A stretch of DNA of 64,000 nucleotides from an uncultured Planctomycetia bacterium (GCA_964572255.1 CAZNEE010000001.1:66223-130222), one strand, 5' to 3'; shown: positions 1-55,458, counted from the stretch's first letter. Made by a program: numbers and translations. The notes: generated by a model not told the origin, from the letters alone.

Positions 1-127
1 AAGAGTTAATGAACTTACACGATATTTACTGGGGGTAAAGGATTCTACGGATGAACTAAAAAAACAGAAAGTTTTTGAAGATACTCTTACAGATCAAGGA
101 CTTGAAGTAGCAGGAAAATTACGCGCT

Positions 128-12002: not shown

Positions 12003-12062
12003 ATACCTATAATTATTAAACTTATATAAAATTAAGGTTTAAAAAAGCTGGAAATTATAGCT

Positions 12063-12091
12063 TTGTGTTTTTGTTATATTTCTGATACAAT
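12063..12091 (+). promoter_or_regulatory. Candidate sigma70-like promoter for the 10-kaa giant gene: TTGTGT, 17-nt spacer, TACAAT.
   Basis: Hexamers read in the AT-rich 216-nt gap between 12002 and 12219. No other strong signal was seen in that gap. Confidence 0.3.
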
Positions 12092-12218
12092 ATAACAGAT
12101 AACATAACAAAAAGCTAGATTTTAGTGGAAGGTAGCCTATCACTCTTCAAATTCATGGGGATTGAACTAAAAGAGGGTAGGCTACAGTTATATATAGGAA
12201 AGTTAAATATTTTAAAAT

Positions 12219-15200
12219 ATGTTTAATATCAATAATAATATAATAACTGAAAATAATACCAGACCTCTTATTATGGACTGGCAAAGCTCCAGAAATAAGA
12301 AGTGGATCAGGACCATAGCGTTAATAGTCATATTCTGCTTTACACATCAATCAATAGGATGGACCGAAAACGGAACCCCCGTATGGACAAGATCAGTTAA
12401 CCTTCCGTCAAATATCGCCGCAAAAGAAGAAGTATTCACCTCAAAAGGAATTAACGGCGACAAGACTATTATCAATATACAGGATGCCCACGCTTCCTTA
12501 AGCGCCCAGGAATCTATTGTATCCGTACTGGATTCATTAGTGTCCAATTACGATCTGAAACTCATAGCTGTTGAAGGATCCGCGGGGCGCATCGACACGT
12601 CACTTTTAAGGACTTTTCCGGATAAAGAAATAAGAGAAAGGTCCGCATACCACCTTATGAAAAAAGGAAAGATGTCGGCTGGAGAATTTTTCTCGATAAC
12701 TTCTGATAAGGAAGTTGCACTTTATGGCGTTGAAGAGAAAGATCTTTATAGGAAAAATGTCGATCAATTTCGCGGCATCTATGAAACGAATCAGGTTATC
12801 CAGAAGGATATACTGAATCTTATCAGCGTTTTAGATGTTTTAAAAGACAACATTTATTCGCAAGAATTAAAAGAGCTTGAGAATAATTCCGTTTTACATG
12901 AGAAGGGAAGCATAACCCTGAAGGAGAGATGGTCTTTTCTCGGCAAGCTGGCCCGTAGATCGGGAGTAAGTCACAAGGAGAAGAAAAACATATCAAAACT
13001 TGTTCAATGTCTTGAGCTGGAGGAAGAGATAGATTTTGAAAAGGCCAATAGCGAAAGATCCGCTCTTATAGATATCTTAAGTAAAGAATTGTCCAAGGAA
13101 GCGCTCGAAGAATTCGTTCTCAAGTCTCTTTCGTATAAGGAAGGCGGGATAACTCAGGGCGAATATCATTTATATCTCCGGAACTTGATGAAAGAGGCAG
13201 GGATCCCTTCCGTGACATATAAAGATCTGAACAAGTTTACAGACTATATTTTTCTCTATGAATCGATAGATATTATCAGTATTTTTGAAGAGATAAAAAC
13301 CTTTGAAAATGAGATAAAAGACAAGTTATTCAAAAACCGCGACCAGAGGGATCTGGACGCATTTTCAAGATACATGGAAACGATCAGGGACCTTTTCGAG
13401 ATAAGACTCGTTAACAGTGATTTCGGGTATATTGTTCAAAACAAAGATAAGTTTACCGCTTCAAATCTTTCAGAATTCATAAGAAATTCTTCCTCAAAGT
13501 ACGGTGTCAGGGTAAAGTGCGATTTTGATCTGGCCAGGATATTCTCCGGCATACCTAAAGCTCTTGAATTTTACAGAACTGTAGAGGAGAGGAACTCCGC
13601 GATACTCGCGAATACCATCAAGGAAATGGACGAAAAAGGACAGAGTATAGCAGCCCTTATCACCGGAGGTTATCATACCAGGGGCTTGAAAGAACTTTTA
13701 AAGAGAGAAGAGACTTCTTATATCGTGATACTTCCTAAATTTGATGATTCGGAAGAGACAAAACGCCCTTACATAGCGATCCTTACCAATAAAAAGGAAC
13801 CCTATCAGGAGCTTTTGGATTCCGGGAGATATTATCTTGCCACAAGCGCTTATTGCGAAGGGATAATAGATCTTTTCAAGAGTTCAGACTCTTTAGAGGG
13901 CGATATCCGGGAAAAATACTTTGAACTGGTGGATAATTACGGGGAAATATTCATTCATAATGTCGTTATGTGGGTTACGGGAGAGTCGGATCCTGATAAG
14001 GCGGCCGGGGTTTTCAGGAGGAAATTCAGGAGCAATCCCGAAAGGATACACAAGGAATGCGCGGATCTTATTGACAGCTGGTCGGGGAGTTACAAAAGTT
14101 TTTACGATGGATGCGAGGACAAGGAACTGTTGATCTCCCCTGAAGAGACTAAAAGGTTCCTGGAGTTTTTGGTCGAAGAGAAGCTCGGAGCTACACGTGA
14201 AAGCAAAGAAGAGCCGGTATTACTGCAGGGAGAGGAAAAAGATCTGCAGGATGAGTCTTATGTTGTCAGAAGCGTTATAGAGAGGATCACTAGTCTTGGC
14301 GGCGATATAAGTGATCTTGACAGGGCTTGCAGGATCTTAGGGGTGACCCCCACACCAGGCATACGGGAAGAGGTTTTAGGGCAGTTAGGAAAGATGGAAG
14401 GTGCAGAAGATGCTGAGGTGTCTCCTAAGGAAGAGATATCTGAACCCGAAGAAAAAACTTTGATTGCAGAAGAGGCCGGAACAGTCGAGGAAGATATAAG
14501 GAAAACTGAACCATCCAAAGAAAAGGGTTATGAGGAGCATGCTTTCACGGTCAGGTCGGCTGAGAAGGCGATCATAGTCAGCATTTTATTGTCTTTATTG
14601 AGCTTTGCCGGTGCGGTCAGTTTATTGATATTTAACTATACTTCTCTTTGTTATGTTGTTTTCTGCGGCCTTCTGTCGTTAGCAGGCGTTTATTTTATTT
14701 TTGCCGCTATAAGATATTTTATCATCAAAGAGGATGTTGAGGAAAGATTAACGAGGCGCCTTGTAACGCTTGGCCTTAGCGAGGAAGAGGCCAGCAAAGT
14801 CGTCAAACATATCGCTATAACACATTCCTCGATAGATTACTATGATCATGTGGGGCCGCAATACGGAAAGTTAAAGGAAGAACAGATCCTCCCCAGTAAA
14901 AAGATAAGGGATGAATTTTTGCCTAAGGATAAGGAAGAGAGAAATAAATACATTGCAATATTTAAAGAAGCGGCACTGATTTCGTTCAAGAATATGCACC
15001 CGGACAGTGTTAAAAATTATAACAGAGTTCTTTTAATCAAGCATGAGTCTTTCAGTCATATCAGAGGCTTATTAGCTATCACGCCTATCAGCCTGCATAA
15101 TGCCGCAATATTCGGAAATGCCCTGACATTTTTATCATTTATCGGAATCTGGATCTATCTTTTCGTAAAGGATAATATCAGCATGCCGCTGGCCGGCGGT

Positions 15201-39200: not shown

Positions 39201-42200
39201 TATAGCGGCAAGGAGCATCCTTATATTAAGAATCCGCGTGTTCTAGAGGCTCTTCAGGAAACAAGACCAGCAGTTACTGAGGCATATAGCCTGCTTCCCG
39301 GGACCATACGCGTAAAAAGGTATGATAAAGAACGGATAGTGGTCGATTCTTCGACGGGAAGGAAAAGGTTTATTCCTTTACCTCCTGTCGGACATACTGT
39401 GAGTGTGGGAAAAACCGATGTTCAAAGTGTAGAAAGAGTGGATGAAGATACTATTATTGTGACTACACGAAAAGAATCAAGAGAGATATCCGTTCCCGAG
39501 GAAGGCGGATGGGAAACATTATTGAATAACATAAAACCCAGTAACGATGAGAAGAAAGCAATAGCCGTAAAATCAGCTAAGATAATAGAGGAAAAGGTTC
39601 TGCCGGCTTATGAAAAGCTGGTGCAGGAGTCCATAGACCAGATGAAAAAGCAGATGTCGGGCCAGGGATCAGGTCAAAGCGGGCAGGAGCAGGATCAGCC
39701 GGGACAGGGAGGCGTGGAAGCGCAAGCTGAAGAAGAAGTAGAGAAGCAGTCAAAAGAATTTGCCGATGACCTGGAAGGAAAACTGCCCCGGGGTGAAGAG
39801 GAAAAGAAAGAAGAGATGAAGAAAAAGAGAGAAGAAAGGTGGAAGAAGCCGCAGGATGAGGGGAAATCCAAAGCAGGCGATAAAGATGAGGAGAAAGGTG
39901 AAGGCGGCGGCGGAGATGAAAAAACGGAAGAAGATAAAGAAGGAGGAGATGAAAAGGGAGAAGGCGCCGGAGAAAAGGATGAAGAAAAAGACCAAAAGGG
40001 CGTAAGTTCAGGTGGAGAGGACAGCGCGGAAGATAAAAATGAAGTAAGTTCTGAATCCAGCGAAAGAAGCAGCGGGGGAGAAGATAAAAGCAGATCGGAT
40101 TCAGCAGAAGAAAAACGCCAGAAGAGAGAGCCCTCAGAAGACGGTACTAAAAAAGAAAGCGCTGCTGATGCGGAAGGCGAGAAGCAGGAAACCGCCCAGG
40201 AAGAAGATCGCTCAAAAGGCAAGCCGTCCCCGGTCGATTTTGGCAGAAGACTTACAATGAAAGACAGGCTTAAGCTGGACATAAAATTAAGAGAGAAGAT
40301 AAAAGTAGAACATAAAGACAAGTATGATAAATATTATTCGCAGGCAATCCGTTTGATCGAACGCCTGTTCGGTACTCTTGACAACGAGCTTGTGAAGGAT
40401 AAAAAACCGAGGTATAAAGGCTGGTTTGAGGCGGGCAAGCTTCGCAGGATGAATAAAGCCATGACAATGAAGAAGACGGGGGATATGCGGATATGGGAAA
40501 GAAGAAGCAATCCTACAAAGAGAAGTTTTAAATTCAGCATCGTTCTTGATGAAAGCGGATCCATGGGCATGGGACATTCTGAATCTGAGACTTCCCAGGA
40601 TGCCCTGAAAGCCCTTGTACTTTTCATGGAAGTCTTATCCAGGCTTGATATTGATTTTTCAGTTATCGGTTTCAGTGACGCTCCTTCTGTTCATAAGAGT
40701 CTGCAGGAAAGTTTTAAGTACAAGAACAAGGACGAGCTGATCAATGAGATCATTGAGTATATGGGGAGAGGATTGGGGACATATGATGCCGCGGCCGTAA
40801 ATCTGGCCGTGAATCAGCTTGAGCAGGAATCCAGCGATTCAAAAGTCATTATTGTCATTACTGATGGTTATGGAAACGGTCCCGTTGAAGTGGAAAAAAT
40901 GATAAGAGAGGCAAGGAAAAAAGGTATTGAAGTCATAGGCGTTGGTGTAGGCAACGGCATGCAGTATGTTAAGAGCGTTTATCATCCGAATGCCACTGTC
41001 CGGACAATGGAAGAGCTGCCCGGTGTGATCGCGAAACTTTTGATCGATATCATTGTATATAGAAAATACACGCCAATTGATCATGAAGAAAAAAATCAGC
41101 CTATTAATGCAATAAAACTTTCTATCGCTTCACTTGTGAACATTTTTGCCGGGATCGGATCCATGTTTCTAACGGATCTTGCCCCGGGTTCCGTTCTTCC
41201 TTGGATGTTGGGGATATTTTCAGGAGCTTGTATCGCAAGTGCGCTTATATATCTTGTTACAACAATGTTTATAGAAATGGTCTTCCAGATCGGCAGGGAA
41301 ACGGCCTTTCGTTCCGAGGAAAGAAAGATAGCCAGAACTGTAACTTATCCGGACGGGACAAAACGGATAGAGACAGAACCTGAGTTTGATAAACTTCCCT
41401 GGATAATAAGGAAATTTATCATCATGCATGAAAAGGTCCACGTTGCCGGTTTCGGCGAATTTATGGCATACGCGTTCCCATGGATCGGTCTTTTTGTTAA
41501 GACATCAGGGAAAAATAAAAAGTCCATGATCGGCGGCGATCCGGAAATTGCCATAGGCATTCATAAGAACGTTTCTGATGAAGTATTTACTGAAATTATT
41601 AATATTCTGGATGAAAAAGTAAATATTATAGTAACTGAGAGTGAAGAAGAATTTGCGGAGGCGATCGAAGATGCAAATTTTACAGGTATTTTTATCGACG
41701 AGAGCATAACACTGGATTCAATAATGACCGAGAAGGTAAGAAAAGATATCTATTCAATAAAGTTAATGAAGACGTATAAAGGGATTTTAAAGGTAAACGA
41801 AATAAGCCCTGAAACTAGGGACAAAATAGCTGAGACTATAAAGAAAATCATACCGGAGATAGACAAAGTGGATATTGACAGCGTGCTGGGCACAGCACGT
41901 GAGATCATGGCAAAGGATGCTGATCTTTACAAGAATATCATGAGTTTACAGGGCCTGGTCGCAAAACGAAAAAATGAGATAGCTTCTGTCTATAATAATA
42001 TGAAGATGGACGAGGCGGTAAACTACGGCGGTAATCTGGTGGTTGCTACAACTGAAAGAATAGCGGAATTCGACCCGTTTGCGTTCGATAACATGCAAAA
42101 AACAGAAGGCCGGAGCATCGTAAATTACTTCATTTACGGTGATAACATCAAGGACATCGATGAGGCAAAGAAGTTCGCCAGAGCGAGCGGGTATAAGGGG

Positions 42201-42617
42201 GATCTAAATAACATCAAGTTTATTGATAAACGCGGCCTTTCATATAAAGAATTAATATTGAAGATATCGTCAGAGGAAGGTATCACGCCTGACAATATAG
42301 GTATTAGAGCTTGTGAGGGAGAATTTGAAAAAGAAAGATCAGAATTCCGGTACGGAAAACTCCTGGAAGTCAAAGCAATAGACGCGGGCGGAGAGAAGGT
42401 ATATGTAGGTATTAATACATATCAAATACTGTTAAAGATACTGGTGAGCACGCAAAATACAGATGATATTTTCTATGACACAATTGATCTTCCGGGCGTT
42501 TCTTATGACGCTGGGAAGGGAATATTCACGTATTTACCGCGGTCTATTCCTATCGATTATCATAAAGAAATAAGGATCTACAGGAACGCGATGAGGATCA
42601 TAAATTCTGCCGCGTAA
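12219..42617 (+). CDS. Giant (10,132 aa) membrane-embedded modular protein. Order of parts: N-terminal TM anchor plus soluble region; four copies of a multi-TM domain (X0-X3); six HEAT/PBS-lyase-type repeat arrays, each closed by a conserved LEELEEAY...WKQDRMKKQ junction plus TM helix; a midasin-like cassette of six tandem AAA+ domains split by a membrane hairpin; an HETGH motif; a D/E/K-rich linker; a VWA/MIDAS domain; C-terminal TM helices and a tail.
   Basis: Single ORF in the track with no internal stops. Six Walker-A loops (GETGVGKTT, GPTGAAKTS, GESGVGKTS, GPTGSAKTS, GETGAGKTS, GLTGGGKSE), each followed by DGxL..A...G.W..LDE.NLA...(I/V)LER.NSLLDD and (I/V)HPNFR.FA.MNP...GR. A DESGSMG...VIVITDG MIDAS-type VWA signature. 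Dozens of D..VR..AA.ALG.IGD.RAVEPLI..L.D repeats. Confidence 0.85.
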   Translation: MFNINNNIITENNTRPLIMDWQSSRNKKWIRTIALIVIFCFTHQSIGWTENGTPVWTRSVNLPSNIAAKEEVFTSKGINGDKTIINIQDAHASLSAQESIVSVLDSLVSNYDLKLIAVEGSAGRIDTSLLRTFPDKEIRERSAYHLMKKGKMSAGEFFSITSDKEVALYGVEEKDLYRKNVDQFRGIYETNQVIQKDILNLISVLDVLKDNIYSQELKELENNSVLHEKGSITLKERWSFLGKLARRSGVSHKEKKNISKLVQCLELEEEIDFEKANSERSALIDILSKELSKEALEEFVLKSLSYKEGGITQGEYHLYLRNLMKEAGIPSVTYKDLNKFTDYIFLYESIDIISIFEEIKTFENEIKDKLFKNRDQRDLDAFSRYMETIRDLFEIRLVNSDFGYIVQNKDKFTASNLSEFIRNSSSKYGVRVKCDFDLARIFSGIPKALEFYRTVEERNSAILANTIKEMDEKGQSIAALITGGYHTRGLKELLKREETSYIVILPKFDDSEETKRPYIAILTNKKEPYQELLDSGRYYLATSAYCEGIIDLFKSSDSLEGDIREKYFELVDNYGEIFIHNVVMWVTGESDPDKAAGVFRRKFRSNPERIHKECADLIDSWSGSYKSFYDGCEDKELLISPEETKRFLEFLVEEKLGATRESKEEPVLLQGEEKDLQDESYVVRSVIERITSLGGDISDLDRACRILGVTPTPGIREEVLGQLGKMEGAEDAEVSPKEEISEPEEKTLIAEEAGTVEEDIRKTEPSKEKGYEEHAFTVRSAEKAIIVSILLSLLSFAGAVSLLIFNYTSLCYVVFCGLLSLAGVYFIFAAIRYFIIKEDVEERLTRRLVTLGLSEEEASKVVKHIAITHSSIDYYDHVGPQYGKLKEEQILPSKKIRDEFLPKDKEERNKYIAIFKEAALISFKNMHPDSVKNYNRVLLIKHESFSHIRGLLAITPISLHNAAIFGNALTFLSFIGIWIYLFVKDNISMPLAGGVIIAVLTLDIFTQLLIFIKTFIGLQSKFVEANTGLKVFSVSTILFLISFLVLISINPALFSWGVLLWAVITDLLLAGFLALYLTKSEEWHAVVIPVLTLLIGAGCIYHFKIKEAFLSTSELAAKAAFTREPDVKEETVFQILAHKDREEVIPEMVKNLNSNNRKLDNFSVQMLDVLKWEPESLREEVEYHVARRDEKRFQPLKDGMIGLLIDIVKREDADSGARLFSAMLLARECDKRVIEPVLDMWHKIGIISSSGLKEEYSLEADLKMLIENHGSIIYPHLKRFIVDEEWKKRDPEKSVIDSNWLRRQVIARVLAEINDPGTVDLLAIILEDNIDENRNIAVETLIRIGKPAISALKNILESSKFSKARESAAMILKTIGGEEAKAILLQARSDGSPRVRKAVADALNALGWAPGEEQEKIDHFIDNEYWDKIAEIGAPAIYLLERRLDSDDIQYRRRIIYALGNIKDPRAAEIILPLLYDDKSDIRISAADALGASGDKRAVEPLMELLGHSYSPVRGSAARALGKIRDIRAIKTLIKSLETEDKSDAKIEMISALKKFKDKSAKDILIKVLYDDEEGVKESAKKALRAILDMEGMLDELDQAYEGNDREKISTLEKLLTEVDKPALIQWKQDRMKKQAPTFKKYLTIGGIATLALAVLSVIFLVVRKLFKVKKVSGEKDDSTHAFTALSGFIGSGITALLSGGTFMGAVFAFGAGSMALNIIGSFAVIVGFYLGIAAMRYFFLGRATYTAMRDEKLPFKRSLTEPIARSDETQHKAFDHLKDKYKELIKKHEWHENHFIGMLGILLFPSITVSETAWTWDRRINIVRLKWVSIILSYISLAAIGIYAIPIADLVVLPGAAAVISAVLAVNLFMQLVIILKSYVEYGLFEPPVLVFPALAAASMLILNLVNPLFLFPATFWAIFTASIGATAFVSDSLRDRFTIAFAVLLFVLSFAVLPYKVWCAGKETDAVIKVGIEHFSRKKKLDPFAYQISANRKREEIIPKIVELLHNDKYSREFAVRMLEELKWEPQNIEEKVLYLATKERFDEIKLLGRPAIDIIVKGLTDKSSVSRKFSADILKKIEWEPKTQKEKLSYHIADKNWDVLAERGDIAIEQLRTCLEDEDREVRKGAAKVLDKLSWQAETQAEKITYSIAKEDQEMLIEIGAPAADDLIKMLKDKDPNARIFAIKVLEQIDDERVERLLTVRALEDEDENVSTAAGDTLKDMIDVAELLQRLDWAYEKDNRAKIKEIEDVLLRTDNKEALVKWKQDRMKKQALAFKKYLIVGGIATLALVVLSGLFLAVKKLFKVKRSGSTPKLPLIILFVLLSLFSARGIKAQEVPAPTPLPTPQEEIKTEKIPDVDALIEKLKDNDMDIRASAIKKLGEMKEVKAVDPLIEIVKKKCSRKIYIEKGLVESLTVEMPDGTKIICLPDDVACRVQAAKALGNICDKRAVDALIEALKDELSGEPRSSIITDLTLAEAHIGEALAKIGEPAIEPLKKALSEADHHTKRERIANILRKIESAKAAEALLESYKKEKEDPKWVYVNVYNGLIDIGRPAVEVLIKASKDEDIWIRRLALDVLGEIEIGTKEASEEAVDALINALKSGKNHSLDMGPAFINMSKKNTYVVDALIEALKDEDYSVRIDAASALSRICDQKAASPLLDAFLKEKDEIARQAIASALTEIKDPNAIEALKKALEDESSRVRAVAAWALERVDVMTPELKIIRYAKDLEDESVEVRVKAAKALSMMHGQKSKTALIKALCDEEEDVRKLAEKAAEMLETKLILEELEKAYDRDEDREKIIAIEKFIIKTNKPALNEWKRNRMKQRTSPFKKYLVWIGIGTLILVFLGGIAIAVKKVFKFKRSGKTPKLPLIILFVLLSVFSAKGVRAQEAPVPAPQEQEEVENEKEVDRLIKDLGDKDESIRNRAAKALGEIGGPKAIEALIKNMAVTHDLHGIKIVDPRACMDALVKIGEPAVKPLIKSLEDKDGTIRACAAAALDRLGVLTLEHKITKWSADLKDIDKKITVSEIREFDEIKDPDVRVDLLIAALIRGDGREQAEQSLKEINVMTPDILIKKLSHYLDSGNDIFRRGAAKELIKIEDPKVIDILVKMMGSKDEVVHDLAVEKLIEIEWQPKGPEEEVLYIDSLAEELKGYCTPEEQQLIFTALLKIGSKKAVKAIIEACGNEKQERSLYAIRVLVAIGPPAVDPLIEALESKSERIRKMAAKALEIIGDKRAAPGLIKMAKKAKDEEAYWESIDAIKALGGIGDASAVDFLTSVVENKKLGQIMRTEAAEALGKIGDPKAVDALLKAKNSKHYSLRIAAILALGEIGDPRPVEALIKEVGNTSMQNHSYEAIVALGNIGDPRAVEPLSKILDPEVYRSSYQKKAAFISLMQIGRPAAEILVPDWKKRYESFLYNLPREFKEELEMKRIKELALKFLTGSLKNEKTIMRKNAAEGLDDLEWKPATQEEKIIYCIAKEDWKALSETGEAAIPLLEEALRYEDPSISSSIAEILKKMEWKPEVQEEEIYYFIAKTDADALAKIGEPAVEALAELLESDYVSAQNFAKRLLKQFGTKVLLEQLEQAYAEGDREKINMLERRINLYDEEALIKWKRERLEKGAPPFWKYLAVAAGMFVFVLLGGMILAVGKVLKAKKAEKDNSTHAFRALSGFIAGGVTALLAGGVFRAAILTFGIGGLTFNIIGGLVLSIGIYSAIAAVRYFFLSKATYNAMRKEGLSFKDALIKPIAQSNSKTGALIVHKKAHDLLPDKYKKAIIMHESYKSHFIGMLAMPFSLIHDLLNQRVVSAITMINLYAMVIYEFIVWNTVSQLGLTIITAALAMNIGLQILVGIKMLIDRNKSGPDFVSLVWIAINCGFILLNCINPALLSPAVLLIFVMVAALSVTADIEKKADRIDAPVAFFIMMIGFFVVFLLGYGKLNMAFMDTPEMLDHAVHITDDQSSQNKNFYTVRRWVRKYWAAEILANRKEEEVVPELLKEMKGADQHARDIIFKVIKKIDWEPGTVEEKISYYTAKGDIEKLVSLREPAIGALLDILEDGTIENKAAAEEALGRIKVPKTVKVKAEKDEPTEKDPELAETTISGICPPAKSFSTLIQDLKSYKAGTRLDAAKALGDLGNRDAVPYLIEMLHWKIPYENDHLTPDWSPTKADVRKKALEVRSAVVEALGKLKDPRAVDHILSIATERSSSHGYILTETAVIALGKIGSPKAAKSIIETLADWSYKDISIEALVNIGKPAVPDLLEGIKTKGERSSYTRARDYSKNIRAFCAEALGRIQDERALKPLIKALRDGDRLVREHAAIGLGYLKDSKALQPLLNALKDKESDVRSAAAIALGRIEDERAFNALIKAYKTENKGYGEEESLVRAIGHFNNFLAINILASHAEEGTSDLNKFISERLVEIGEPAVKFLIRRINYDEARNILIKIGDPAIKPILEIFRNGDRQQRISAYTALKRMDNLPKGPFIEKLGHKDLLMREQSIEILTKLGWEPGTQEEKIYYYIANKDYDAVSKIGEPAVDVLIEALEYEDVGSRENAARILGELGSKRAVLPLANILEDKDLRNDVSAALRKIVKTSEALEELEEAYKVGDRERIDALEKILTEIDKPALVTWKQERMKKQVPAFKKYLTLGGISLLVLTLLGGVIAAIRKVSKVKKTKAEKDDSGHAFRALSGVAASGIALLFTGGAFVGVFYAWSAGGLVLNIAGGAALSFGIYLAVVSARYFFLGRATYIAMRDEKLSFKDALTIPIATANISRHRHKAYEGLSYKNKKLIDLHESYKSHFIGMLALMFSFIPGLVSSKAINRLTMISILSMTVYKLCVWNAASAFASGIITNLLVVHLAWQVLIFMRVIFEKFFGTSWGYLHEGSESFISLSMILVNGAFLYLGLLNPALLSPVVLFFALAVLMYANDDHQYRSSVIEFSFLPIVLFLVLGVSLFTKVKMASMDTVEVMKTAVQVKDVRNPRNMRYMMRRYWAAEVLANRKKEEVIPQLVSELNNENMDIREIAAEALYKLNWEPKNAEEEFLYHVAGRDIEKLSSLGKAATKPLLDILKEGNRDEKIAAAKAIGRIKDPETGPGLLDALKTASSKYYGDPKLEIVLIEAIGNIRFGKAVPLLLNELKEGNTAARKALVKIGEPAVEPLVKMLEHEKTVFKREKYEGILIEIGKPSAAVERLLEGGSFHNRESAAKILFKIGLYTKELRIKRCKADLKDENCSDIAKAKAEEALRKLGEVPEEGKTYKDIWDSEEARKEKIGKLIKDFESNDEKKQSAAVRELVRIGKPAVLDLIEALQENFAPVEQSAAKALAEIKDPRAIQPLFDKMENDDFDETRMVAAEALKQMGWEPKTDHEKAVYYIAIQAWDKLVEIGPAAVPKIIPRLKDDSPRVRINIINTLGRIKDPSVITRLIQSLRDEPINENVQWNKEHYAEVLGALKRALKAFGEEIVPHLKRELKEGNGKSKKWSIDILEDAGALSKTDLLEALKDEHYSVREFAVLALGRRNDPSVIDRLIEVFNAEKFEVKKFSKSGGFAVREAVVVALSDIGGEKAAGFLIKALKDKDWDVREKAATGLGKLEEKRAVRPLITALKDSNVDVRKQAAWALGQIGGKEAINALLGALEDDAKDVREAAKDALRKIVIAGEKLKELEEAYKKEDREKITEIEDILSIVNKDALEEWKQDRMKKEFPKFGKYLTVGGIIVFLFALISAFGIAVWKTIKKRKNLLLSILLAVTCAGAFYYLNEAFQFADEGGIFSLAGAPFFPVGGIITEGGIDPILAKEMTKFHKLMVKSAKKKIIGQDLRAPYEFTRRDRRRWANFINKYRSEMGITKAFIKGARYVYGDRMRTPDDEEKFIKIFKSLDLKAIADADPVDVDLEDLLKTGNIEYFTELIGSNPAALYSFCVRSDDDVVKEITDMISSEDIDAQKKGILSWAFLPDDVAEYLVAYGLHFDDHRLIEAAVRVAGRKKISNFNSQILKFSRNGDMELAASSLETLAETGDAEIASEVFKDLMTSGDQLFKIFKTRARVVALLGHDKDEYIEKFLRSLENSLGANFPQEARDVLVDAIVELGGRKIAENSLIAIQHAAAGSVRSDVNKVLLRLKQSQGMGKNDHLHFADQEVVELGKKLKGISRSISSGFRRALIENSARYQDFSENPEIFYRNGRSLQFIDTKLPINGRDEDKGFVPDESTTRIVPILRTVQDLEKIAQAAEMEDPLLLVGETGVGKTTLIRYLARLSNNNVRRFNLNGQTDKFEFIGGYKPEQYTLSRDQAYNVVEGLLKKETGHSKEEIVRAVRIISGQDKTCEQAKDILRQAFENKNSETISAIAEAVMNKSFEFKWHYGVLIEAMRRGHWLILDEINLAEPEIVERIRYLLDAHSHLKLSEYNNENWIDSRDYDEMVAKYIKKHERSGKDKETLTKEIVEDLTRQGIHRIHPNFRLFATMNPFGYEGRKELSAALMNKFNVKYIKQFEPDDIKGILKTKYNFSEDLLDKIISIHFGLTDVSGVGGMLGRNEGITYYYTIRHVFRLAERLKRDSENTGDTVIKDYLLQKEIIEIYGDGLRTEDDEKIFSSILYKVIPSSRFMKNDTSKKVTDNTEEGTVRIGDVVLPVNPDGGSLVPGEDSKLLLVKTTREWLEKIAKCILMDEKSLFIGPTGAAKTSMLRYIAHLTNNEFIRVNLDSYADTSDLIGKYIPKEDTKGELRWEDGVLIKAMEKGQWMLLDEFNLADPDILERINSLLDDDGALVVTEHNHERWVPHEKFDRLKAAGHDMSGLRRIHPNFRIFAAMNPERYAGRNRLSRAMMNKFNEKWISGYMSEDEIKHIAYFYATDGSIMEEEPLEGEIADQASAILSAVYLRVREMLEKNELGRGKISGINAEEYNFSLRDLKDWSKFVRKLHGEMGINRAIIEGALYVFRDRLEGIDDKGIFRDEILKRIIQIGNGHESVDIDRLDVLEEEGKSAEELITDVKVTDDDMNVLQRTEIAEIVDMFDNLCMNFPKYLHDDQGLNEIRRRLLTPGSEAAGIRGFALLPEDVAELLLDIVLDSVNPELLMAGCEVAGHLKIDSCNDKLLFLLKHDDFNVRAAAAFAIENVGLRFRDKDLGRPEKLEKKVLGKILLTEKEGGQSVGDYLGLKWIFRRLWIPCLGTMIPFLGLLFWMPLPYWQAAGGLLFSLSAVYIFSYIVLIKFAYPFIYGEQSEAIKKRYETLPLTLDDYYKLYEPGNRYKIKLPYHLKSKPVFGEDSKLRAYALPIFSMAGMVFAAFTGYGGYIGGFTTVSGMITLVIFEILMAVMGLFFSIGFFVLLTSWIATMGEVFSKPLMKRFLKGPEPEDDGFKITLPYSEGTIELFERYKQDQEAKRKALLSKGLAGEAKSPEDIIGVMKDEKIVIKDGKIIIDNIELDMKNSPEALVPDKEAAKLINTISAVRNMKKVAISLLLNEPALLVGESGVGKTSVVRYLASLVNWGFRRFNLNGQTEKTELIGGFRPDENGQFKWVDGILINAMREGSILVLDEINLAESQVLERINSLLDDDRHISIPEKDNMQWIDSRKYDLKVKEVTEKNKVTEEEAREILTEKKIFRIHPDFRLIATMNPVEYAGRNILSPALMNRFKVKWIDEMYSLERVAIFNNMFKNSAGGPLLDLNIVDRLDWLHTRIKDTAQARSIGEQEVDPYYYSIRDFIKLGFRIKEAIGKKERDEDRKLNREERTDIAIRESVLVYVDRIRDAEERNRLISVVEDFLGGFDTSGIEAAGISDTPDKVRIGDIVLDKNDGRGPYVPGKKSVLFDTPTTNRYLAKLAEMVHLNETPLMVGPTGSAKTSIVRYLSYLTKNNFVRVNLDAQTDTSEIIGSYIPVEDREGEFEWRDGLLVTALRKGYWVLLDELNLADPEILERINSLIDDEGCLIITEHEGEKIMSAKEYDRKVAEYVRGRKIVSDPRSEEELTLEAKEHLEKEKIYRVHPNFRLFTAMNPARYSGRNRLSLAMRNKLSEIWISGEMDEHEYKRIISGYLTDNPSKRKMVISMTEIHLGMLEVVNMLDEGTIDKYQFSMRDIKAWANYVNMYGPKIGWDEAFAKGAVYIYYDRLTKAEHRKEFMSFFSELLKEASYSKAYKHAVNFTARSISTKDKEKVTTRNNGFIDVLETTLEVNRSPISKELVPKEDVAKLIHTDSAMKDLEKVAQAAYLNEPSLLIGETGAGKTSLVRYLAHLTNNAFQRFNISGQTEKRDFIGGYHPDEDGKFVWKDGILIEAIKKGEWLVVDEINLAPSQVIERMNSLLDDDGFIVVTEHKGEKYIRQSEYDKKVDEYAYIIMQKEKCSMEEAVRKAKEELTKELVFPIHPNFRFFATMNPSEYAGRQVFSKALINRFRVKWIDIPDKEDVREILKEKYKGKLPQKIINKAIEVHYEMIEGSSGIDEDKVHYTIRHLIRWMERLVLGLEKEWDTDVNRLAFTEGAAIYGDGLPIEEDQEDSLSNEYGGIDNIQLLYNMLEEALEARFGKPQGEENIEITEDEDLVSFGEVSLPENKEERKFYVSGPELKNTGSMKRFLKRIARSVLAVENILLLGLTGGGKSELVRHLSDLTNNNFIAMDLDGQTDVSQLIGQYVPLEGEDRFQWVQGSLLEAMEHGAWILIDELNLAEPEIIERLNSLLDDDASLTVNEHKGEKWIPAKLYDELEANGHDMTYLKKIHENFKLFCAMNPAHYAGRTKMSKAMLNKFYQLWIPQEGTFEEEAEITVHYLDAEASFSDVSEEKLRMEGVIEKNTELAEAARYVNSSSLYLGMNGFGALAYIFDQIKSWRKKRKDDQNKKLELKSLNPQYLLEKSGEEEDEDMGWLKKIRMKRGDKKVNKILKNVSFMKEFYSGEFNTDIRPGAGWAIDLSTTPPTLIYPKKDLEERSADYICGVTMHETGHRDISFLVEKFFKKESTRFLLNAVEDPRVNNWGMVKVPGTKRYFKTMYDEDSPASGRISMADFSKVLPHIQFGLGIIHHWYSGKEHPYIKNPRVLEALQETRPAVTEAYSLLPGTIRVKRYDKERIVVDSSTGRKRFIPLPPVGHTVSVGKTDVQSVERVDEDTIIVTTRKESREISVPEEGGWETLLNNIKPSNDEKKAIAVKSAKIIEEKVLPAYEKLVQESIDQMKKQMSGQGSGQSGQEQDQPGQGGVEAQAEEEVEKQSKEFADDLEGKLPRGEEEKKEEMKKKREERWKKPQDEGKSKAGDKDEEKGEGGGGDEKTEEDKEGGDEKGEGAGEKDEEKDQKGVSSGGEDSAEDKNEVSSESSERSSGGEDKSRSDSAEEKRQKREPSEDGTKKESAADAEGEKQETAQEEDRSKGKPSPVDFGRRLTMKDRLKLDIKLREKIKVEHKDKYDKYYSQAIRLIERLFGTLDNELVKDKKPRYKGWFEAGKLRRMNKAMTMKKTGDMRIWERRSNPTKRSFKFSIVLDESGSMGMGHSESETSQDALKALVLFMEVLSRLDIDFSVIGFSDAPSVHKSLQESFKYKNKDELINEIIEYMGRGLGTYDAAAVNLAVNQLEQESSDSKVIIVITDGYGNGPVEVEKMIREARKKGIEVIGVGVGNGMQYVKSVYHPNATVRTMEELPGVIAKLLIDIIVYRKYTPIDHEEKNQPINAIKLSIASLVNIFAGIGSMFLTDLAPGSVLPWMLGIFSGACIASALIYLVTTMFIEMVFQIGRETAFRSEERKIARTVTYPDGTKRIETEPEFDKLPWIIRKFIIMHEKVHVAGFGEFMAYAFPWIGLFVKTSGKNKKSMIGGDPEIAIGIHKNVSDEVFTEIINILDEKVNIIVTESEEEFAEAIEDANFTGIFIDESITLDSIMTEKVRKDIYSIKLMKTYKGILKVNEISPETRDKIAETIKKIIPEIDKVDIDSVLGTAREIMAKDADLYKNIMSLQGLVAKRKNEIASVYNNMKMDEAVNYGGNLVVATTERIAEFDPFAFDNMQKTEGRSIVNYFIYGDNIKDIDEAKKFARASGYKGDLNNIKFIDKRGLSYKELILKISSEEGITPDNIGIRACEGEFEKERSEFRYGKLLEVKAIDAGGEKVYVGINTYQILLKILVSTQNTDDIFYDTIDLPGVSYDAGKGIFTYLPRSIPIDYHKEIRIYRNAMRIINSAA
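14520..15540 (+). other. Multi-TM domain X0, the first of four paralogous membrane domains (HAF...RYF...).
   Basis: Runs of hydrophobic helices beginning HAFTVRSAEKAIIVSILLSLLSFAGAV. Confidence 0.45.
17098..17190 (+). repeat. Intragenic nucleotide repeat: the WKQDRMKKQ-junction/TM segment, about 88% identical at nucleotide level to 19011-19103. Related copies lie near 20676, 23058, 26103 and 29291.
   Basis: Aligned by eye: tggaaacaggaccgcatgaaaaaacaggcgc...ggcggtatagctacgct versus tggaagcaggaccgcatgaaaaaacaggcgc...ggcggtatagctacgct. Confidence 0.7.
17240..18110 (+). other. Multi-TM domain X1 (KDDSTHAFTALSGF...HEWHENHFIGML...).
   Basis: Paralogous to 23200-24060 and 26250-27120. The nucleotide 17-mer cattttataggcatgct is shared by all three copies. 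Confidence 0.5.
19160..19240 (+). repeat. Intragenic nucleotide repeat encoding an internal signal-peptide-like segment (KLPLIILFVLLSLFSARGIKAQEVP), highly similar to 20822-20905 (KLPLIILFVLLSVFSAKGVRAQEAP).
   Basis: aaacttccgcttatcattttatttgtactgctttc...gcccaggaag versus aaactgccgcttatcattttattcgtattgctttc...gcccaggaag. Confidence 0.7.
23200..24060 (+). other. Multi-TM domain X2 (KDNSTHAFRALSGF...HESYKSHFIGML...).
   Basis: A 26-nt stretch (23565-23590) is identical to 26607-26632. Confidence 0.5.
26250..27120 (+). other. Multi-TM domain X3 (KDDSGHAFRALSGV...HESYKSHFIGML...).
   Basis: Paralogous to X1 and X2, with the same flanking junction before it and the same MASMDT...ANRKKEEVIP entry into the HEAT array after it. 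Confidence 0.5.
30850..31990 (+). other. AAA+ domain 1 of the midasin/MoxR-like (AAA_5-type) cassette.
   Basis: P-loop GETGVGKTT at 30918-30944; GVLIEAMRRGHWLILDEINLAEPEIVERIRYLLD; IHPNFRLFATMNPFGYEGRKELSAALMNKF. Confidence 0.65.
32150..33060 (+). other. AAA+ domain 2.
   Basis: P-loop GPTGAAKTS at 32214-32240; GVLIKAMEKGQWMLLDEFNLADPDILERINSLLDDDG; IHPNFRIFAAMNPERYAGRNRLSRAMMNKF. Confidence 0.65.
34520..35470 (+). other. AAA+ domain 3.
   Basis: P-loop GESGVGKTS at 34584-34610; GILINAMREGSILVLDEINLAESQVLERINSLLDDD; IHPDFRLIATMNPVEYAGRNILSPALMNRF. Confidence 0.65.
35620..36540 (+). other. AAA+ domain 4.
   Basis: P-loop GPTGSAKTS at 35679-35705; GLLVTALRKGYWVLLDELNLADPEILERINSLIDDEG; VHPNFRLFTAMNPARYSGRNRLSLAMRNKL. 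Confidence 0.65.
36760..37640 (+). other. AAA+ domain 5.
   Basis: P-loop GETGAGKTS at 36816-36842; GILIEAIKKGEWLVVDEINLAPSQVIERMNSLLDDDG; IHPNFRFFATMNPSEYAGRQVFSKALINRF. Confidence 0.65.
37870..38420 (+). other. AAA+ domain 6.
   Basis: P-loop GLTGGGKSE at 37926-37952; GSLLEAMEHGAWILIDELNLAEPEIIERLNSLLDDD; IHENFKLFCAMNPAHYAGRTKMSKAMLNKF. Confidence 0.6.
39660..40240 (+). other. D/E/K/G-rich low-complexity acidic linker between the AAA cassette and the VWA domain. It is analogous in position to the D/E-rich region of eukaryotic midasin.
   Basis: QGSGQSGQEQDQPGQGG...EEKKEEMKKKREERWKK...GDKDEEKGEGGGGDEKTEEDKEGGDEKGEG...SSERSSGGEDKSRSD read from the translation. Confidence 0.7.
40527..41050 (+). 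other. von Willebrand factor A (MIDAS) domain.
   Basis: FKFSIVLDESGSMG (DxSxS at 40548-40562)...DFSVIGFSD...KVIIVITDGYGNG...IEVIGVGVGNG. Confidence 0.65.
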
Positions 42618-55422: not shown

Positions 55423-55458
55423 AAGTTAGCCTAAAACACAGTTTATTAATGATTGCGA

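What the first reader, a model, noticed from the sequence alone, without database searches (positions are those of the whole stretch)
12219..42617. 30.4-kb single ORF encoding a 10,132-aa modular membrane protein
One uninterrupted reading frame occupies almost half the window. Its parts run in this order:
- an N-terminal TM anchor plus a ~700-aa soluble region;
- four paralogous multi-TM domains (X0-X3);
- six HEAT/PBS-lyase repeat arrays, each closed by a conserved junction and a TM helix;
- two repeats of a helical pre-AAA linker (SWAFLPDDVAEYLVAYGL / GFALLPEDVAELLLDIVL);
- six AAA+ domains;
- a D/E-rich linker and a VWA/MIDAS domain;
- C-terminal TM helices.
Proteins of this size are rare in bacteria and are mostly reported from candidate phyla such as Omnitrophota. 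I could not match this combination (HEAT scaffold plus midasin-like motor plus MIDAS, all membrane-threaded) to a described family. A plausible role is a giant membrane-anchored mechanochemical scaffold or adhesin, for example for cell-cell attachment or envelope remodelling.
Basis: partly seen in the sequence, partly recalled or inferred. Interest (0 to 1): 0.9.

Follow-up and report, generated by a model that had tools for sequence, protein, structure and literature searches.

The report
Bacterial giant protein with midasin-like motor
This is a real 10,132-residue bacterial membrane protein, probably from Omnitrophota, that carries in one chain a six-module ATP-driven ring plus metal-dependent "grabbing" domain of the kind known from the eukaryotic ribosome-assembly motor midasin, which makes it a rare prokaryotic counterpart of such single-chain ring motors.

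Summary
It is not an assembly artefact. Internal DNA repeats are at most 156 nt at 60-85% identity, GC is uniform, and every major junction recurs in independent assemblies of other organisms.

New findings:
- The N-terminal "soluble region" is a TIKI/TraB/Ere/ChaN-fold domain that heads many Candidatus Omnitrophota large proteins.
- The multi-TM X module is a rare family (62 of 1.84 billion representatives).
- All six AAA_5 modules keep Walker A and B. They match Rea1/midasin far better than any other solved protein.
- A transmembrane cluster sits inside the ring, between AAA2 and AAA3.
- A conserved HExxH zincin-like domain precedes the acidic linker and a midasin/CobT-type MIDAS domain.
- The same AAA + HExxH-VWA pair occurs as split two-gene systems in many phyla.

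Most likely this is an Omnitrophota-type giant membrane protein whose cargo is a fused, membrane-anchored MoxR/midasin-class remodelling machine. Sidedness of the HEAT arrays, the client and the biological role are unknown. I rate it a new variant of known kinds, with interest 0.72.

The parts
12219..42617 (+). Whole gene: 10,132-aa giant modular membrane protein
   Evidence: Single ORF with no stops or Ns. GC is uniform at 0.38-0.46. Internal DNA repeats are at most 156 nt at 60-85% identity.
12297..12365 (+). N-terminal K/R-flanked hydrophobic segment (aa 27-49); signal anchor or signal peptide
   Evidence: Sequence and hydropathy. Modelled as a helix, aa 24-47.
12396..13748 (+). TIKI/TraB/Ere/ChaN-fold head domain (aa 60-510), followed by a helical region to aa ~730
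14499..15578 (+). X0 multi-TM module (aa 761-1120); lacks the junction/TM1 part
   Evidence: Self-BLAST and X-profile match, E 2e-125.
15579..17099 (+). HEAT array 1
   Evidence: Pfam HEAT_2/HEAT_PBS. Repeat count.
17100..18143 (+). Junction 1 + X1 multi-TM module (aa 1628-1975), HEx4HxxG at aa 1789
18144..19013 (+). HEAT array 2
19014..19226 (+). Junction 2 + two-helix TM hairpin (aa 2266-2336)
   Evidence: Matches X-profile positions 1-43. Sequence and charge data.
19227..20678 (+). HEAT array 3
20679..20888 (+). Junction 3 + two-helix TM hairpin (aa 2821-2890)
20889..23060 (+). HEAT array 4
23061..24083 (+). Junction 4 + X2 multi-TM module (aa 3615-3955), HESYKSHFIG at aa 3779
   Evidence: The family has only 62 representatives among 1.84e9 proteins.
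24084..26105 (+). HEAT array 5
26106..27140 (+). Junction 5 + X3 multi-TM module (aa 4630-4974), HESYKSHFIG at aa 4793
27141..29294 (+). HEAT array 6
29295..29486 (+). Junction 6 + TM hairpin (aa 5693-5756); a weak third hydrophobic segment at aa 5765-5783
29550..30728 (+). Pre-AAA linker (aa 5778-6170). It begins with an orphan AAA lid-like element homologous to the lids of AAA2 and AAA4.
   Evidence: Pfam AAA_lid_7, E 1e-5. Self-BLAST: 5778-5874 matches 8015-8109 and 5819-6012 matches 6893-7106. Sequences.
30729..32894 (+). AAA1 (aa 6171-6560, with a 68-aa insertion after GGYKPEQ) and AAA2 (aa 6600-6892)
   Evidence: Pfam AAA_5. Walker A GETGVGKT / GPTGAAKT and Walker B DE are intact.
32895..34370 (+). 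Linker repeat (aa 6893-7106) and intra-ring TM cluster (aa 7152-7323, about 4 helices)
   Evidence: Conserved in orthologues L004-L007, L009, L010, L012, P0008 and P0017.
34371..38648 (+). AAA3, AAA4, AAA5 and AAA6 (aa 7385-8810), all with intact Walker A/B
   Evidence: Rea1 match E 1e-141. Position-specific orthology across genomes.
38766..39635 (+). Zincin-like HExxH domain (aa 8850-9139; HETGH at aa 8911) with a beta-rich subdomain
39636..40223 (+). Acidic low-complexity linker (aa 9140-9335; 32% D+E, 15% G, 10% S)
40224..41063 (+). MIDAS/VWA domain with a midasin/CobT-type N-terminal extension (aa 9336-9615); D9444-x-S-x-S, T9522, D9549
   Evidence: Pfam VWA, E 8e-18. Profile vs PDB: midasin 1e-28, CobT 1e-17, NorD 2e-9. 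Motif.
41118..41273 (+). C-terminal TM pair (aa 9634-9685)
   Evidence: Hydropathy.
41274..42614 (+). C-terminal domain with a conserved HExxH (HEKVH, aa 9737) and the family's C-terminal tail motif ending ...SAA
   Evidence: Conserved in P0005. Tail shared with other giant proteins and with the 548-aa neighbour.

Best explanation
The ORF is one genuine gene of a bacterium that is most likely a member of Candidatus Omnitrophota. It belongs to a lineage-specific family of very large membrane proteins with constant ends and variable cargo between them. The constant ends are a TIKI/TraB-fold head domain and a conserved C-terminal tail. The chain is punctuated by a rare multi-TM X module.

Here the cargo has two parts: six HEAT solenoids, and a complete MoxR/midasin-class remodelling machine fused into the same chain.

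Shown directly:
- Six AAA_5 modules of two alternating subtypes, all with intact ATP-binding and hydrolysis motifs.
- Membrane anchors before the ring, inside the ring (between AAA2 and AAA3) and after the VWA domain.
- After the ring, the same three-part partner that is a separate gene in many other prokaryotes: a zincin-like HExxH domain, an acidic flexible linker, and a VWA domain with a complete MIDAS site.

Inferred by analogy with Rea1/Mdn1, NorQ-NorD and CbbQ-CbbO:
- The six modules fold into a single-chain pseudo-hexameric ring on the cytoplasmic face of the membrane.
- The tethered MIDAS domain docks on the ring and holds an acidic residue of a client protein through its metal ion.
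- ATP hydrolysis pulls or twists the linker, so the client is remodelled or extracted at the membrane.

More speculative:
- The HEAT arrays serve as binding platforms for clients or partners.
- The hydrolase-like domains (TIKI-like head, zincin-like domain, HEx4H loops of the X modules) process the client or the giant protein itself.
- Because the VWA domain is followed within 20 residues by TM helices, ring activity could also be transmitted across the membrane.
For: - ORF integrity. No near-identical repeats. Uniform composition.
- Every major junction recurs in independent assemblies: N-domain to X (P0078 and others); X-HEAT-linker-AAA1-2-insert (P0017); insert-AAA3-6-HExxH (P0008/L005); ring-HExxH-VWA (L003-L010); HExxH-VWA-TM-C-terminus (P0005).
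- Lineage.
- Head-domain fold.
- X-module rarity and its co-occurrence with the head domain in other giant proteins.
- AAA motifs. They are conserved in five orthologues.
- Position-specific orthology of ring positions: bootstrap 86-88% for the odd clade, position 1 and position 6.
- Midasin similarity of the ring (E 1e-141; one 116-aa core gives E 5e-116 against all six Rea1 modules, versus dynein 5e-8 and NorQ 1e-6) and of the MIDAS region.
- Split two-gene homologues, AAA or two-AAA gene adjacent to an HExxH-VWA gene, in UBP9, Vulcanimicrobiota, Bacillota, anammox Planctomycetota, CPR, Gammaproteobacteria and DPANN.
- Zincin-like domain.
- Mechanistic precedents: NorQD finger-in-pore and linker twisting, and the Rea1 MIDAS loop in the pore (PMC13036017); the vWA-recruits / MoxR-unwinds / peptidase-cleaves proposal (PMC3495828).
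Against: - No client, ligand or partner gene is identifiable. The flanking genes are housekeeping genes or further large proteins.
- Ring formation, MIDAS docking and ATPase activity are not shown. The ring was too large to model here.
- An intra-ring TM cluster has no precedent among solved relatives and might constrain ring closure.
- Topology is unresolved. Two self-consistent models exist, HEAT arrays outside or inside, and each violates one rule of thumb.
- The source organism is not directly identified.
- Expression is unknown.
Confidence: 0.6

Rival explanations
1. It is a surface or extracellular adhesin or 'coat' protein. The HEAT arrays and head domain are displayed outside the cell and mediate attachment to host or prey cells. 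This is what has been proposed for Omnitrophota giant proteins and what the first reader suggested. The cytoplasmic motor would be only an accessory.
For: - The K/R-flanked N-terminal hydrophobic segment looks like a signal anchor.
- A homologue of the head domain is annotated 'secreted' (P0117).
- K/R-rich loops between the hairpin helices, and Pro-rich acidic segments after them, favour HEAT arrays outside.
- West-Roberts 2023 report HEAT repeats only in predicted extracellular regions.
- Seymour 2023 propose adhesion roles.
- The 548-aa neighbour combines a signal peptide with the family's C-terminal tail.
Against: - No adhesin-type domain (discoidin, dockerin, Ig, laminin G, TSP3) is found in 10,132 aa.
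- HEAT_PBS-type repeats, AAA and MIDAS partners are typically cytoplasmic (established knowledge).
- An equally self-consistent topology puts the HEAT arrays inside.
- The published localisations are stated by their authors to be unreliable.
- This reading does not explain why 44% of the chain is a six-site ATPase with a MIDAS partner.
Confidence: 0.2
2. It is a polyprotein. The giant chain is a precursor that its own hydrolase-like domains (TIKI-like head, zincin-like domain, HEx4H loops) or the neighbouring C39-peptidase protein cut into separate membrane-anchored HEAT modules and a free-standing AAA-VWA machine.
For: - There are several protease-like elements with conserved putative catalytic residues.
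- The conserved 'junction' sequences recur before each TM unit.
- The AAA and HExxH-VWA parts exist as separate proteins in other phyla.
- West-Roberts raise self-cleavage by C39/S8 domains.
- A 1,832-aa C39-containing protein is encoded 4.8 kb downstream.
Against: - No cleavage site or processed product is known.
- The junctions are part of the X module fold rather than linkers.
- The fusion order is conserved in at least 8 genomes, which suggests selection for the covalent arrangement.
Confidence: 0.12
3. It is a MoxR-vWA 'ternary' conflict or defence system of the kind described by Kaur et al. 2020, fused into one chain.
For: The AAA_5/MoxR-class ATPase plus vWA theme is shared, and there are weak Pfam bpMoxR hits. 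That paper describes membrane-proximal and peptidase-linked variants.
Against: - No VMAP, iSTAND or effector domains are present.
- PADLOC gives only generic P-loop hits.
- The bpMoxR scores are far below those for AAA_5.
- The gene sits in a housekeeping context rather than a mobile island.
Confidence: 0.04
4. It is an assembly artefact (chimera, repeat concatenation) or a eukaryotic midasin fragment acquired or mis-binned.
For: The size is extreme and the architecture repetitive. Two short-read contigs carrying the downstream genes end about 100 nt inside the 3' end of the ORF. Midasin is the best solved match.
Against: - Paralogous modules are old. DNA identity is 60-85% over at most 156 nt, and protein identity is 25-59%.
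- GC and skew are uniform.
- Neighbouring proteins occur on a 527-kb contig and in four data sources.
- All junctions recur in other genomes.
- Ring cores are only 36-41% identical to Rea1, the same distance as to prokaryotic single-AAA relatives.
- The mapping to Rea1 is not colinear.
- The zincin domain and TM insert are absent from midasin.
Confidence: 0.03

Closest known systems
Midasin (Rea1 in yeast, MDN1 in humans), the eukaryotic pre-60S ribosome remodelling AAA+ protein
   Same: - Six AAA_5 modules in one polypeptide with midasin-type lids.
- An acidic low-complexity region followed by a MIDAS domain that has the same N-terminal extension.
- It is the best solved match for both the ring (E 1e-141) and the MIDAS region (profile E 1e-28).
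- Both proteins show insertions at the helix-2 position and two alternating module subtypes.
   Different: - No ~1,700-aa helical linker. A 290-aa zincin-like HExxH domain sits there instead.
- TM helices lie before, inside and after the motor.
- About 5,700 aa of head domain, X modules and HEAT arrays lie upstream.
- All six Walker B motifs are intact.
- The modules do not map colinearly, and a core tree leaves the relationship unresolved.
- The host is bacterial, so the known UBL-domain clients are absent.
MoxR-class AAA+/VWA partner pairs: CobS-CobT, NorQ-NorD, CbbQ-CbbO, GvpN
   Same: - The AAA_5 family (NCBIfam GvpN 5e-55, CobS 4e-26).
- A partner built as N-domain, flexible linker, then VWA with MIDAS (CobT 1e-17, NorD 2e-9).
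- Free-standing ~780-aa HExxH-VWA homologues carry the Pfam CobT_C domain and sit next to AAA_5 genes.
   Different: - Those are homo-hexamers of single-AAA subunits with a separate partner. Here six modules and the partner are one chain.
- No CobN, cNOR or Rubisco client is encoded nearby.
- The partner's N-domain here has an invariant HExxH...E motif. I found no PDB sequence match for it.
Giant proteins of Candidatus Omnitrophota ('Archaeovorins', West-Roberts et al. 2023; giant ORFs of Seymour et al. 2023; Velamenicoccus archaeovorus 39,678-aa protein)
   Same: - Lineage.
- Many TM segments, with HEAT_2 as the dominant domain and AAA_5 among the frequent domains.
- The same N-terminal head domain as SecA-domain-bearing Omnitrophota proteins (P0085).
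- Function unknown.
   Different: - A third of their size.
- No SecA_DEAD, glycosyltransferase or sugar-metabolism domains.
- The cargo is one coherent machine rather than a string of enzymes.
- The midasin-like unit, the TIKI-fold head, the X module and the C-terminal tail are not described in those papers as held here.
FtsH (membrane-anchored AAA+ ring with zinc metalloprotease); functional analogue only
   Same: A membrane-anchored ATP-driven ring next to an HExxH metalloprotease-like domain.
   Different: FtsH has a classical-clade AAA (PF00004) and an M41 protease in a homo-hexamer. Here the modules are AAA_5 (clade 7), the fold is minigluzincin/M48-like, there is a VWA partner, and all of it is a single chain.

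Membership tests
Midasin (Rea1/MDN1) | Six tandem AAA_5 modules in one polypeptide | tested here: met
   Pfam AAA_5 hits plus AAA_lid_7/AAA_lid_5. Six aligned modules with Walker A/B.
Midasin (Rea1/MDN1) | One-to-one (colinear) correspondence of AAA1-AAA6 with midasin's modules | tested here: not met
   The HMMER stretch table is non-colinear. The 108-column core tree does not pair modules; Rea1 monophyly has 33% support and a bacteria-only clade 14%.
Midasin (Rea1/MDN1) | Long (~1,700 aa) helical linker between AAA6 and the D/E-rich region | tested here: not met
   Only aa 8811-9139 lie there. They form a zincin-like alpha/beta domain.
Midasin (Rea1/MDN1) | D/E-rich low-complexity region preceding the MIDAS domain | tested here: met
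   aa 9140-9335: 32% D+E and 5.6% hydrophobic.
Midasin (Rea1/MDN1) | C-terminal MIDAS domain (DxSxS...T...D) with a midasin-type N-terminal extension | tested here: met
   Motif residues 9444/9446/9448, 9522 and 9549. The profile aligns to Rea1 4342-4783 at E 1e-28, including the extension.
Midasin (Rea1/MDN1) | Soluble nuclear factor acting on pre-60S particles through UBL-domain ligands | not testable with these tools
   The host is bacterial and the protein has many TM segments. No client is identified.
MoxR-class AAA+/VWA pairs (CobS-CobT, NorQ-NorD, CbbQ-CbbO) | AAA_5-type ATPase working with a partner of N-domain, linker and VWA(MIDAS) | tested here: met
   Fused in cis here. Split adjacent-gene homologues occur in many phyla. 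CobT and NorD match the profile.
MoxR-class AAA+/VWA pairs (CobS-CobT, NorQ-NorD, CbbQ-CbbO) | Homo-hexamer of single-AAA subunits encoded separately from the partner | tested here: not met
   Six modules and the partner are in one ORF.
MoxR-class AAA+/VWA pairs (CobS-CobT, NorQ-NorD, CbbQ-CbbO) | Known client (CobN, cNOR, Rubisco, gas-vesicle genes) encoded nearby | tested here: not met
   Window neighbours are PolX, LigA, a deacetylase, GlmM-like, PTS, MetK and large unknown proteins.
Omnitrophota giant proteins ('Archaeovorin' type) | Encoded in Candidatus Omnitrophota | tested here: inconclusive
   Nearly all named homologues are Omnitrophota. The window's own genome is present in NCBI but not named by any tool.
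Omnitrophota giant proteins ('Archaeovorin' type) | Numerous TM segments with HEAT_2 as the most frequent domain | tested here: met
   About 35 hydrophobic segments. HEAT_2 reaches E 1e-85 in tiles.
Omnitrophota giant proteins ('Archaeovorin' type) | Divergent SecA_DEAD / SecA preprotein-binding domains (present in most) | tested here: not met
   No SecA family appears in two offset Pfam tilings. The head domain is shared with a SecA-bearing fragment, P0085.
Omnitrophota giant proteins ('Archaeovorin' type) | Size above 30,000 aa | tested here: not met
   10,132 aa.
TIKI/TraB/Ere/ChaN superfamily (head domain) | Central parallel beta-sheet flanked by helices (TIKI fold) | tested here: met
TIKI/TraB/Ere/ChaN superfamily (head domain) | 2His/2Glu catalytic constellation of active members | tested here: inconclusive
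   H91, E156 and H486 are nearly invariant, and E119 lies in IAVEG. Their spatial arrangement was not checked.
Gluzincin metallopeptidases (M48 / minigluzincin-like) (post-AAA domain) | HExxH on the active-site helix plus an acidic third ligand on the next helix, in a zincin fold | tested here: met
Gluzincin metallopeptidases (M48 / minigluzincin-like) (post-AAA domain) | Zinc binding and peptidase activity | not testable with these tools
   Needs biochemistry.

The most novel reading that the evidence does not exclude
This Omnitrophota/PVC family, together with its split AAA + HExxH-acidic linker-MIDAS relatives in other prokaryotes, represents the prokaryotic stock from which eukaryotic midasin arose. 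That would mean a single-chain six-AAA ring with a tethered MIDAS domain existed in bacteria, contrary to the published view that the six-module chain was a eukaryotic invention. In its bacterial form it would work as a membrane-embedded force transducer linking cytoplasmic ATP hydrolysis to a giant HEAT scaffold.
Probability: 0.18. Interest if true: 0.9.

Novelty: new variant of a known kind. Interest (0 to 1): 0.72.

Why it matters
- **Function of Omnitrophota giant proteins.** Giant genes of Omnitrophota are known but functionally opaque. This one contains a coherent, recognisable machine, which gives a concrete and testable handle on what at least one class of them does.
- **Origin of single-chain AAA+ rings.** Single-polypeptide six-module rings are textbook eukaryotic inventions (dynein, midasin), said to derive from MoxR 'early in eukaryotic evolution' (PMC3495828). 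Here a bacterial lineage has such a chain, with position-specific orthology across genomes, all six sites intact and a cis MIDAS partner. A graded series of split precursors exists in other phyla. Whether homologous or convergent, it offers a prokaryotic comparator for how these rings evolve and work.
- **New building blocks.** Four elements are newly delineated: a TIKI-fold head, the rare X membrane module, a zincin-like partner domain and a C-terminal tail. These can be used to classify other giant proteins.

Tried and rejected
- Whole-protein and 4,373-aa homologue searches failed on the length limit and a time-out. I used shorter pieces instead.
- The word-indexed search with the X-module alignment found nothing. 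The exhaustive profile search was needed.
- Relaxed Pfam, NCBIfam and PADLOC scans gave no family for the head domain, X module, post-AAA domain, C-terminal domain or the 548-aa neighbour. A PDB sequence-profile search of the head domain gave only low-complexity noise.
- The AlphaFold database fold library was unavailable.
- The X0 module was modelled with low confidence (pLDDT 35-55), so its fold and helix count remain unknown.
- I tested whether the odd and even ring modules descend from modules 1 and 2 of the two-AAA proteins. Bit scores were ambiguous, and the tree groups m1 and m2 apart from both subtypes without support, so I dropped the claim.
- I tested a one-module circular shift between the bacterial and Rea1 rings, suggested by P-loop signatures and insertion positions. 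Neither the stretch table nor the tree supports it.
- I considered the C-terminal TM + HEKVH region as a fifth X module. The match is in register but weak (iE 0.05), so I left it open.
- Hand analysis of topology by the positive-inside rule gave two self-consistent but conflicting models. I did not commit to either.
- The source organism could not be named. The species-representative scan did not return the window's own genome.


Full report
**Observation.** The window holds a single open reading frame at 12219-42617 on the + strand. It has an ATG start, 10,132 codons, no internal stop and no ambiguous bases. GC content (0.38-0.46) and GC skew are uniform across it and its surroundings. The longest direct DNA repeats inside it are 47-156 nt at only 60-85% identity. 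The internal paralogy is therefore old, and not the kind that assemblers collapse or concatenate. A 217-nt AT-rich gap with promoter-like hexamers precedes the start.

**Anatomy, N-terminal half.**
- Two offset tilings against Pfam found nothing in the first ~1,300 residues. From there to aa ~5,700 they found strong HEAT_2/HEAT_PBS/HEAT matches, with tile E-values down to 1e-85.
- Self-comparison shows four paralogous multi-TM blocks: X0 761-1120, X1 1628-1975, X2 3615-3955 and X3 4630-4974, at 29-44% identity.
- It also shows six conserved junction-plus-TM units that close six HEAT arrays.
- Three junction units continue into full X modules. The other three stop after a two-helix hairpin and equal the first 45-65 positions of the X profile.
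- A self-trained repeat model finds at least 37 HEAT-like units spread over all six arrays.
- The X modules share invariant residues (H-A-F..S, R-Y-F, H-E-x4-H-x2-G, N-P), which suggests more than a passive anchor.
- An exhaustive profile search of 1.84 billion representative proteins found only 62 with this module (34 below 1e-10). Nearly all are large, up to 7,326 aa.

**Head domain.**
- Residues ~50-600 have 46 homologues at E 1e-201 to 1e-21. Almost every named one is from Candidatus Omnitrophota/Omnitrophica.
- They head proteins with quite different downstream content, including SecA domains, a cellulase, a metallophosphatase and a GNAT.
- An AlphaFold2 model built on that alignment is confident for aa 60-510 (pLDDT 85-97). 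It shows an alpha/beta core with a large helical insertion.
- PMC6254334 lists those proteins as one superfamily whose active members use two His and two Glu. In the head domain H91, E156 and H486 are nearly invariant, and E119 sits in a conserved IAVEG.
- Activity is plausible but untested.

**Motor.**
- From aa ~5,778 the chain changes character.
- Six AAA_5 modules are present (Pfam E to 1e-68 per tile) with midasin-type lids.
- All six keep Walker A (GETGVGKT, GPTGAAKT, GESGVGKT, GPTGSAKT, GETGAGKT, GLTGGGKS), Walker B (hhhDE) and the sensor-1 Asn.
- Odd and even modules form two subtypes. Core identity is 56% odd-odd, 52% even-even and 47% odd-even.
- AAA1 has a 68-aa insertion after GGYKPEQ.
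- Each odd-even pair is preceded by a related element. The pre-AAA1 linker starts with an orphan lid-like segment homologous to the lids of AAA2 and AAA4, whereas AAA6 lacks the corresponding continuation. I infer, without proof, that the orphan lid may complete AAA6 when the ring closes.
- Between AAA2 and AAA3 lies a cluster of hydrophobic segments (aa 7152-7323, probably four helices).
- Against PDB sequences the 2,900-aa motor region matches Rea1/midasin at E 1e-141. The next best are CobS, NorQ and CbbQ at 1e-8 to 1e-6.
- One 116-aa core matches all six Rea1 modules (E 5e-116), versus dynein at 5e-8 and NorQ at 1e-6.

**Partner.**
- After AAA6 comes a 290-aa domain with an invariant H-E-x-x-H and, 21-29 residues later, N..E-D-P..N, in all 12 aligned sequences.
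- Its model is confident (pLDDT 83). A three-stranded sheet is followed by the HExxH helix, then a helix carrying the E-D, then a beta-rich subdomain.
- Then follows a 196-aa low-complexity linker with 32% D+E.
- Then comes a VWA domain with a complete MIDAS motif.
- A profile of this region hits the Rea1 MIDAS region best (E 1e-28, including its characteristic N-terminal extension), then CobT (1e-17) and NorD (2e-9).
- Two hydrophobic segments (aa 9634-9685) and a 450-aa domain with another conserved HExxH end the chain.

**Relatives and integrity.**
- A truncated 6,021-aa representative (P0017) has X, 20 HEAT hits, 7 junctions, 2 linkers, AAA1-2 and the insert.
- NCBI Omnitrophota fragments carry insert-AAA3-6-HExxH, and AAA5-6-HExxH-VWA. 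A JGI fragment carries HExxH-VWA-TM-C-terminus with the same last residues.
- A scan of GTDB species genomes found 48 loci.
- In eight of them the linker-AAA1-2-TM insert-AAA3-6-HExxH-VWA order is fused in ORFs that run off the held DNA. These are Omnitrophota MAGs plus MAGs labelled Planctomycetia.
- Among the near-complete fused ORFs (L004, L006, L007, L009, L010), all six Walker A/B pairs, the HExxH and DESGSM are conserved.
- Every major junction of the giant is thus reproduced in independent assemblies, which rules out a chimera.
- A bootstrapped tree of Walker A-to-B cores shows position-specific orthology across these genomes: odd clade 86%, position 1 88%, position 6 87%. The six-module ring is therefore old and maintained.

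**Split precursors.** In other phyla the same parts are separate, adjacent genes:
- A ~750-aa protein with two AAA modules next to a ~760-890-aa HExxH-acidic linker-VWA protein (UBP9, Vulcanimicrobiota, Bacillota and others).
- A 1,350-aa AAA protein plus partner in Anammoxibacter.
- Single-AAA proteins plus partner in CPR/Patescibacteria, Gammaproteobacteria MAGs and DPANN archaea.

The free-standing partners carry Pfam CobT_C. The giant's C-terminal 4,400 aa is therefore a fusion of an AAA_5 ATPase with its cognate VWA partner.

**Relation to midasin.**
- The HMMER stretch table maps bacterial to Rea1 modules non-colinearly.
- Rea1 cores are 36-41% identical to the giant's. That is the same distance as the prokaryotic single-AAA relatives (36-38%), while the two-AAA proteins are at 50-53%.
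- The tree supports neither Rea1 monophyly (33%) nor a bacteria-only clade (14%).
- Both rings show two alternating subtypes, and both have insertions at the same helix-2 point.
- The evidence therefore shows a specific affinity of this prokaryotic family to midasin for ring, acidic linker and MIDAS. It cannot decide between common descent of the six-module chain and independent concatenation.
- Recent transfer from eukaryotes is unlikely, given the distances, the zincin domain shared only with prokaryotic partners, and the breadth of the split systems.
- The held literature states that the six-module chain arose early in eukaryotic evolution from MoxR (PMC3495828). I found no paper describing a bacterial midasin-like chain.

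**Mechanism.**
- Shown: the parts list and its conservation.
- Inferred from Rea1, NorQ-NorD and CbbQ-CbbO (PMC13036017): the six modules form a ring on the cytoplasmic face; the tethered MIDAS domain docks on it and binds an acidic residue of a client through its metal; ATP hydrolysis pulls or twists the linker to remodel or extract the client.
- The zincin-like domain occupies the position of the partner's ring-binding N-domain. It could also cleave the client, in line with an earlier proposal for MoxR-vWA-peptidase systems.
- The motor is anchored before, within and after the ring, so it must act at the membrane.
- Because TM helices follow the VWA domain closely, force might be passed across the membrane.
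- The HEAT arrays are best read as scaffolds.

**Topology.** Sidedness is open.
- K/R-rich hairpin loops and Pro-rich acidic segments after the hairpins favour HEAT arrays outside. That matches published predictions for related proteins.
- But that model needs a weak third helix before the linker, and it conflicts with an N-terminal signal anchor for X0.
- The alternative, with HEAT inside and the head domain and X loops outside, violates the positive-inside rule at six loops.

**Context.**
- The flanking genes are ordinary bacterial ones: a polysaccharide deacetylase, PolX, NAD-dependent LigA, a GlmM-like mutase, PTS EIIA and EI, CofD-like, GH57, a nucleotidyl transferase and MetK, plus two tRNAs.
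- There are also more large proteins.
- No client or operon partner is evident.
- Neighbouring proteins are found identically in NCBI, JGI, ENA and Logan data on contigs up to 527 kb.

**Verdict.**
The domain reading and the midasin analogy are right. The claim of no described family must be tempered, because HEAT- and TM-rich giant proteins of Omnitrophota are known. The adhesin role is unsupported.
- The complete, conserved, membrane-embedded six-AAA + zincin + acidic linker + MIDAS unit, the TIKI-fold head, the X module and the shared C-terminal tail appear to be new descriptions within known kinds.

Noticed in passing
window 2-10390 (+): The '3,420-aa' ORF upstream is open in frame right to the window's left edge, so it is a second very large gene cut by the window. 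Its only Pfam hit is an ABC1 atypical kinase-like domain (aa 665-872), and it has four TM-like segments.
   Followed up: partly
window 10356-12002 (+): This 548-aa ORF overlaps the previous ORF by 35 nt. It has its own signal peptide (MKLISIVVILSLSVPDSAMA) and no Pfam or NCBIfam hit. Its C-terminal ~200 aa match the C-termini of several X-module giant proteins (E 1e-16 to 1e-12).
   Followed up: partly
window ~42516-42614 (giant aa ~10100-10132); also window ~11920-11999: A conserved C-terminal tail ends the giant, its orthologue fragment, at least nine other head-domain/X-module giant proteins and the 548-aa neighbour. The motif is [FY]-x-[FILM]-P-x3-P-[IVLM]-[DN]-[YIL]-[DE]...Y...[AS]-A-COOH. 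It may be a sorting or assembly signal.
   Followed up: partly
window 47428-52926 (+): A 1,832-aa protein with a Peptidase_C39 domain (aa 665-754) and three TM-like segments, but no ABC transporter part. C39 domains were reported on Omnitrophota giant proteins as possible processing proteases.
   Followed up: no
window 29550-29834 (giant aa ~5778-5872): An orphan AAA lid-like element sits before AAA1 and is homologous to the lids of AAA2 and AAA4, while AAA6 lacks the equivalent continuation. It may complete AAA6 on ring closure, which would be a circularly permuted ring.
   Followed up: partly
L008, L013, L016, L017, L019, L021; L026-L047: There is a widespread two-gene system: an AAA_5 protein (one or two modules) next to a ~650-890-aa protein with an invariant HExxH...EDP domain, an acidic linker and a VWA domain. 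It occurs in UBP9, Vulcanimicrobiota, Bacillota, CPR/Patescibacteria, Gammaproteobacteria MAGs and DPANN archaea. The HExxH domain is not covered by Pfam.
   Followed up: partly
L007 (JBDRJN010000006.1), ORF 2-19834: In this Omnitrophota orthologue the ORF continues ~2,600 aa beyond the VWA domain, with another HExxH (HELGH) and a TM segment. The C-terminal cargo therefore varies between species.
   Followed up: no
L018 (Elusimicrobia MAG), ORF 3455-19048: A 5,198-aa ORF in an Elusimicrobia MAG also fuses AAA modules, the HExxH domain and VWA with much additional sequence. This may be an independent giant fusion outside Omnitrophota.
   Followed up: no
L001, L002 versus window ~42512: Two independent short-read contigs (JGI 3300018080, ENA ERZ27256796) that carry the downstream genes both end about 100 nt inside the 3' end of the giant ORF. 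This suggests short-read assemblies tend to break there.
   Followed up: no
window 55453-56058 and 55459-55534: The listed TTG-start ORF for the PTS EIIA-like protein overlaps tRNA-Gly(GCC), and the Pfam match begins at residue 50. The true start is probably downstream of the tRNA.
   Followed up: no
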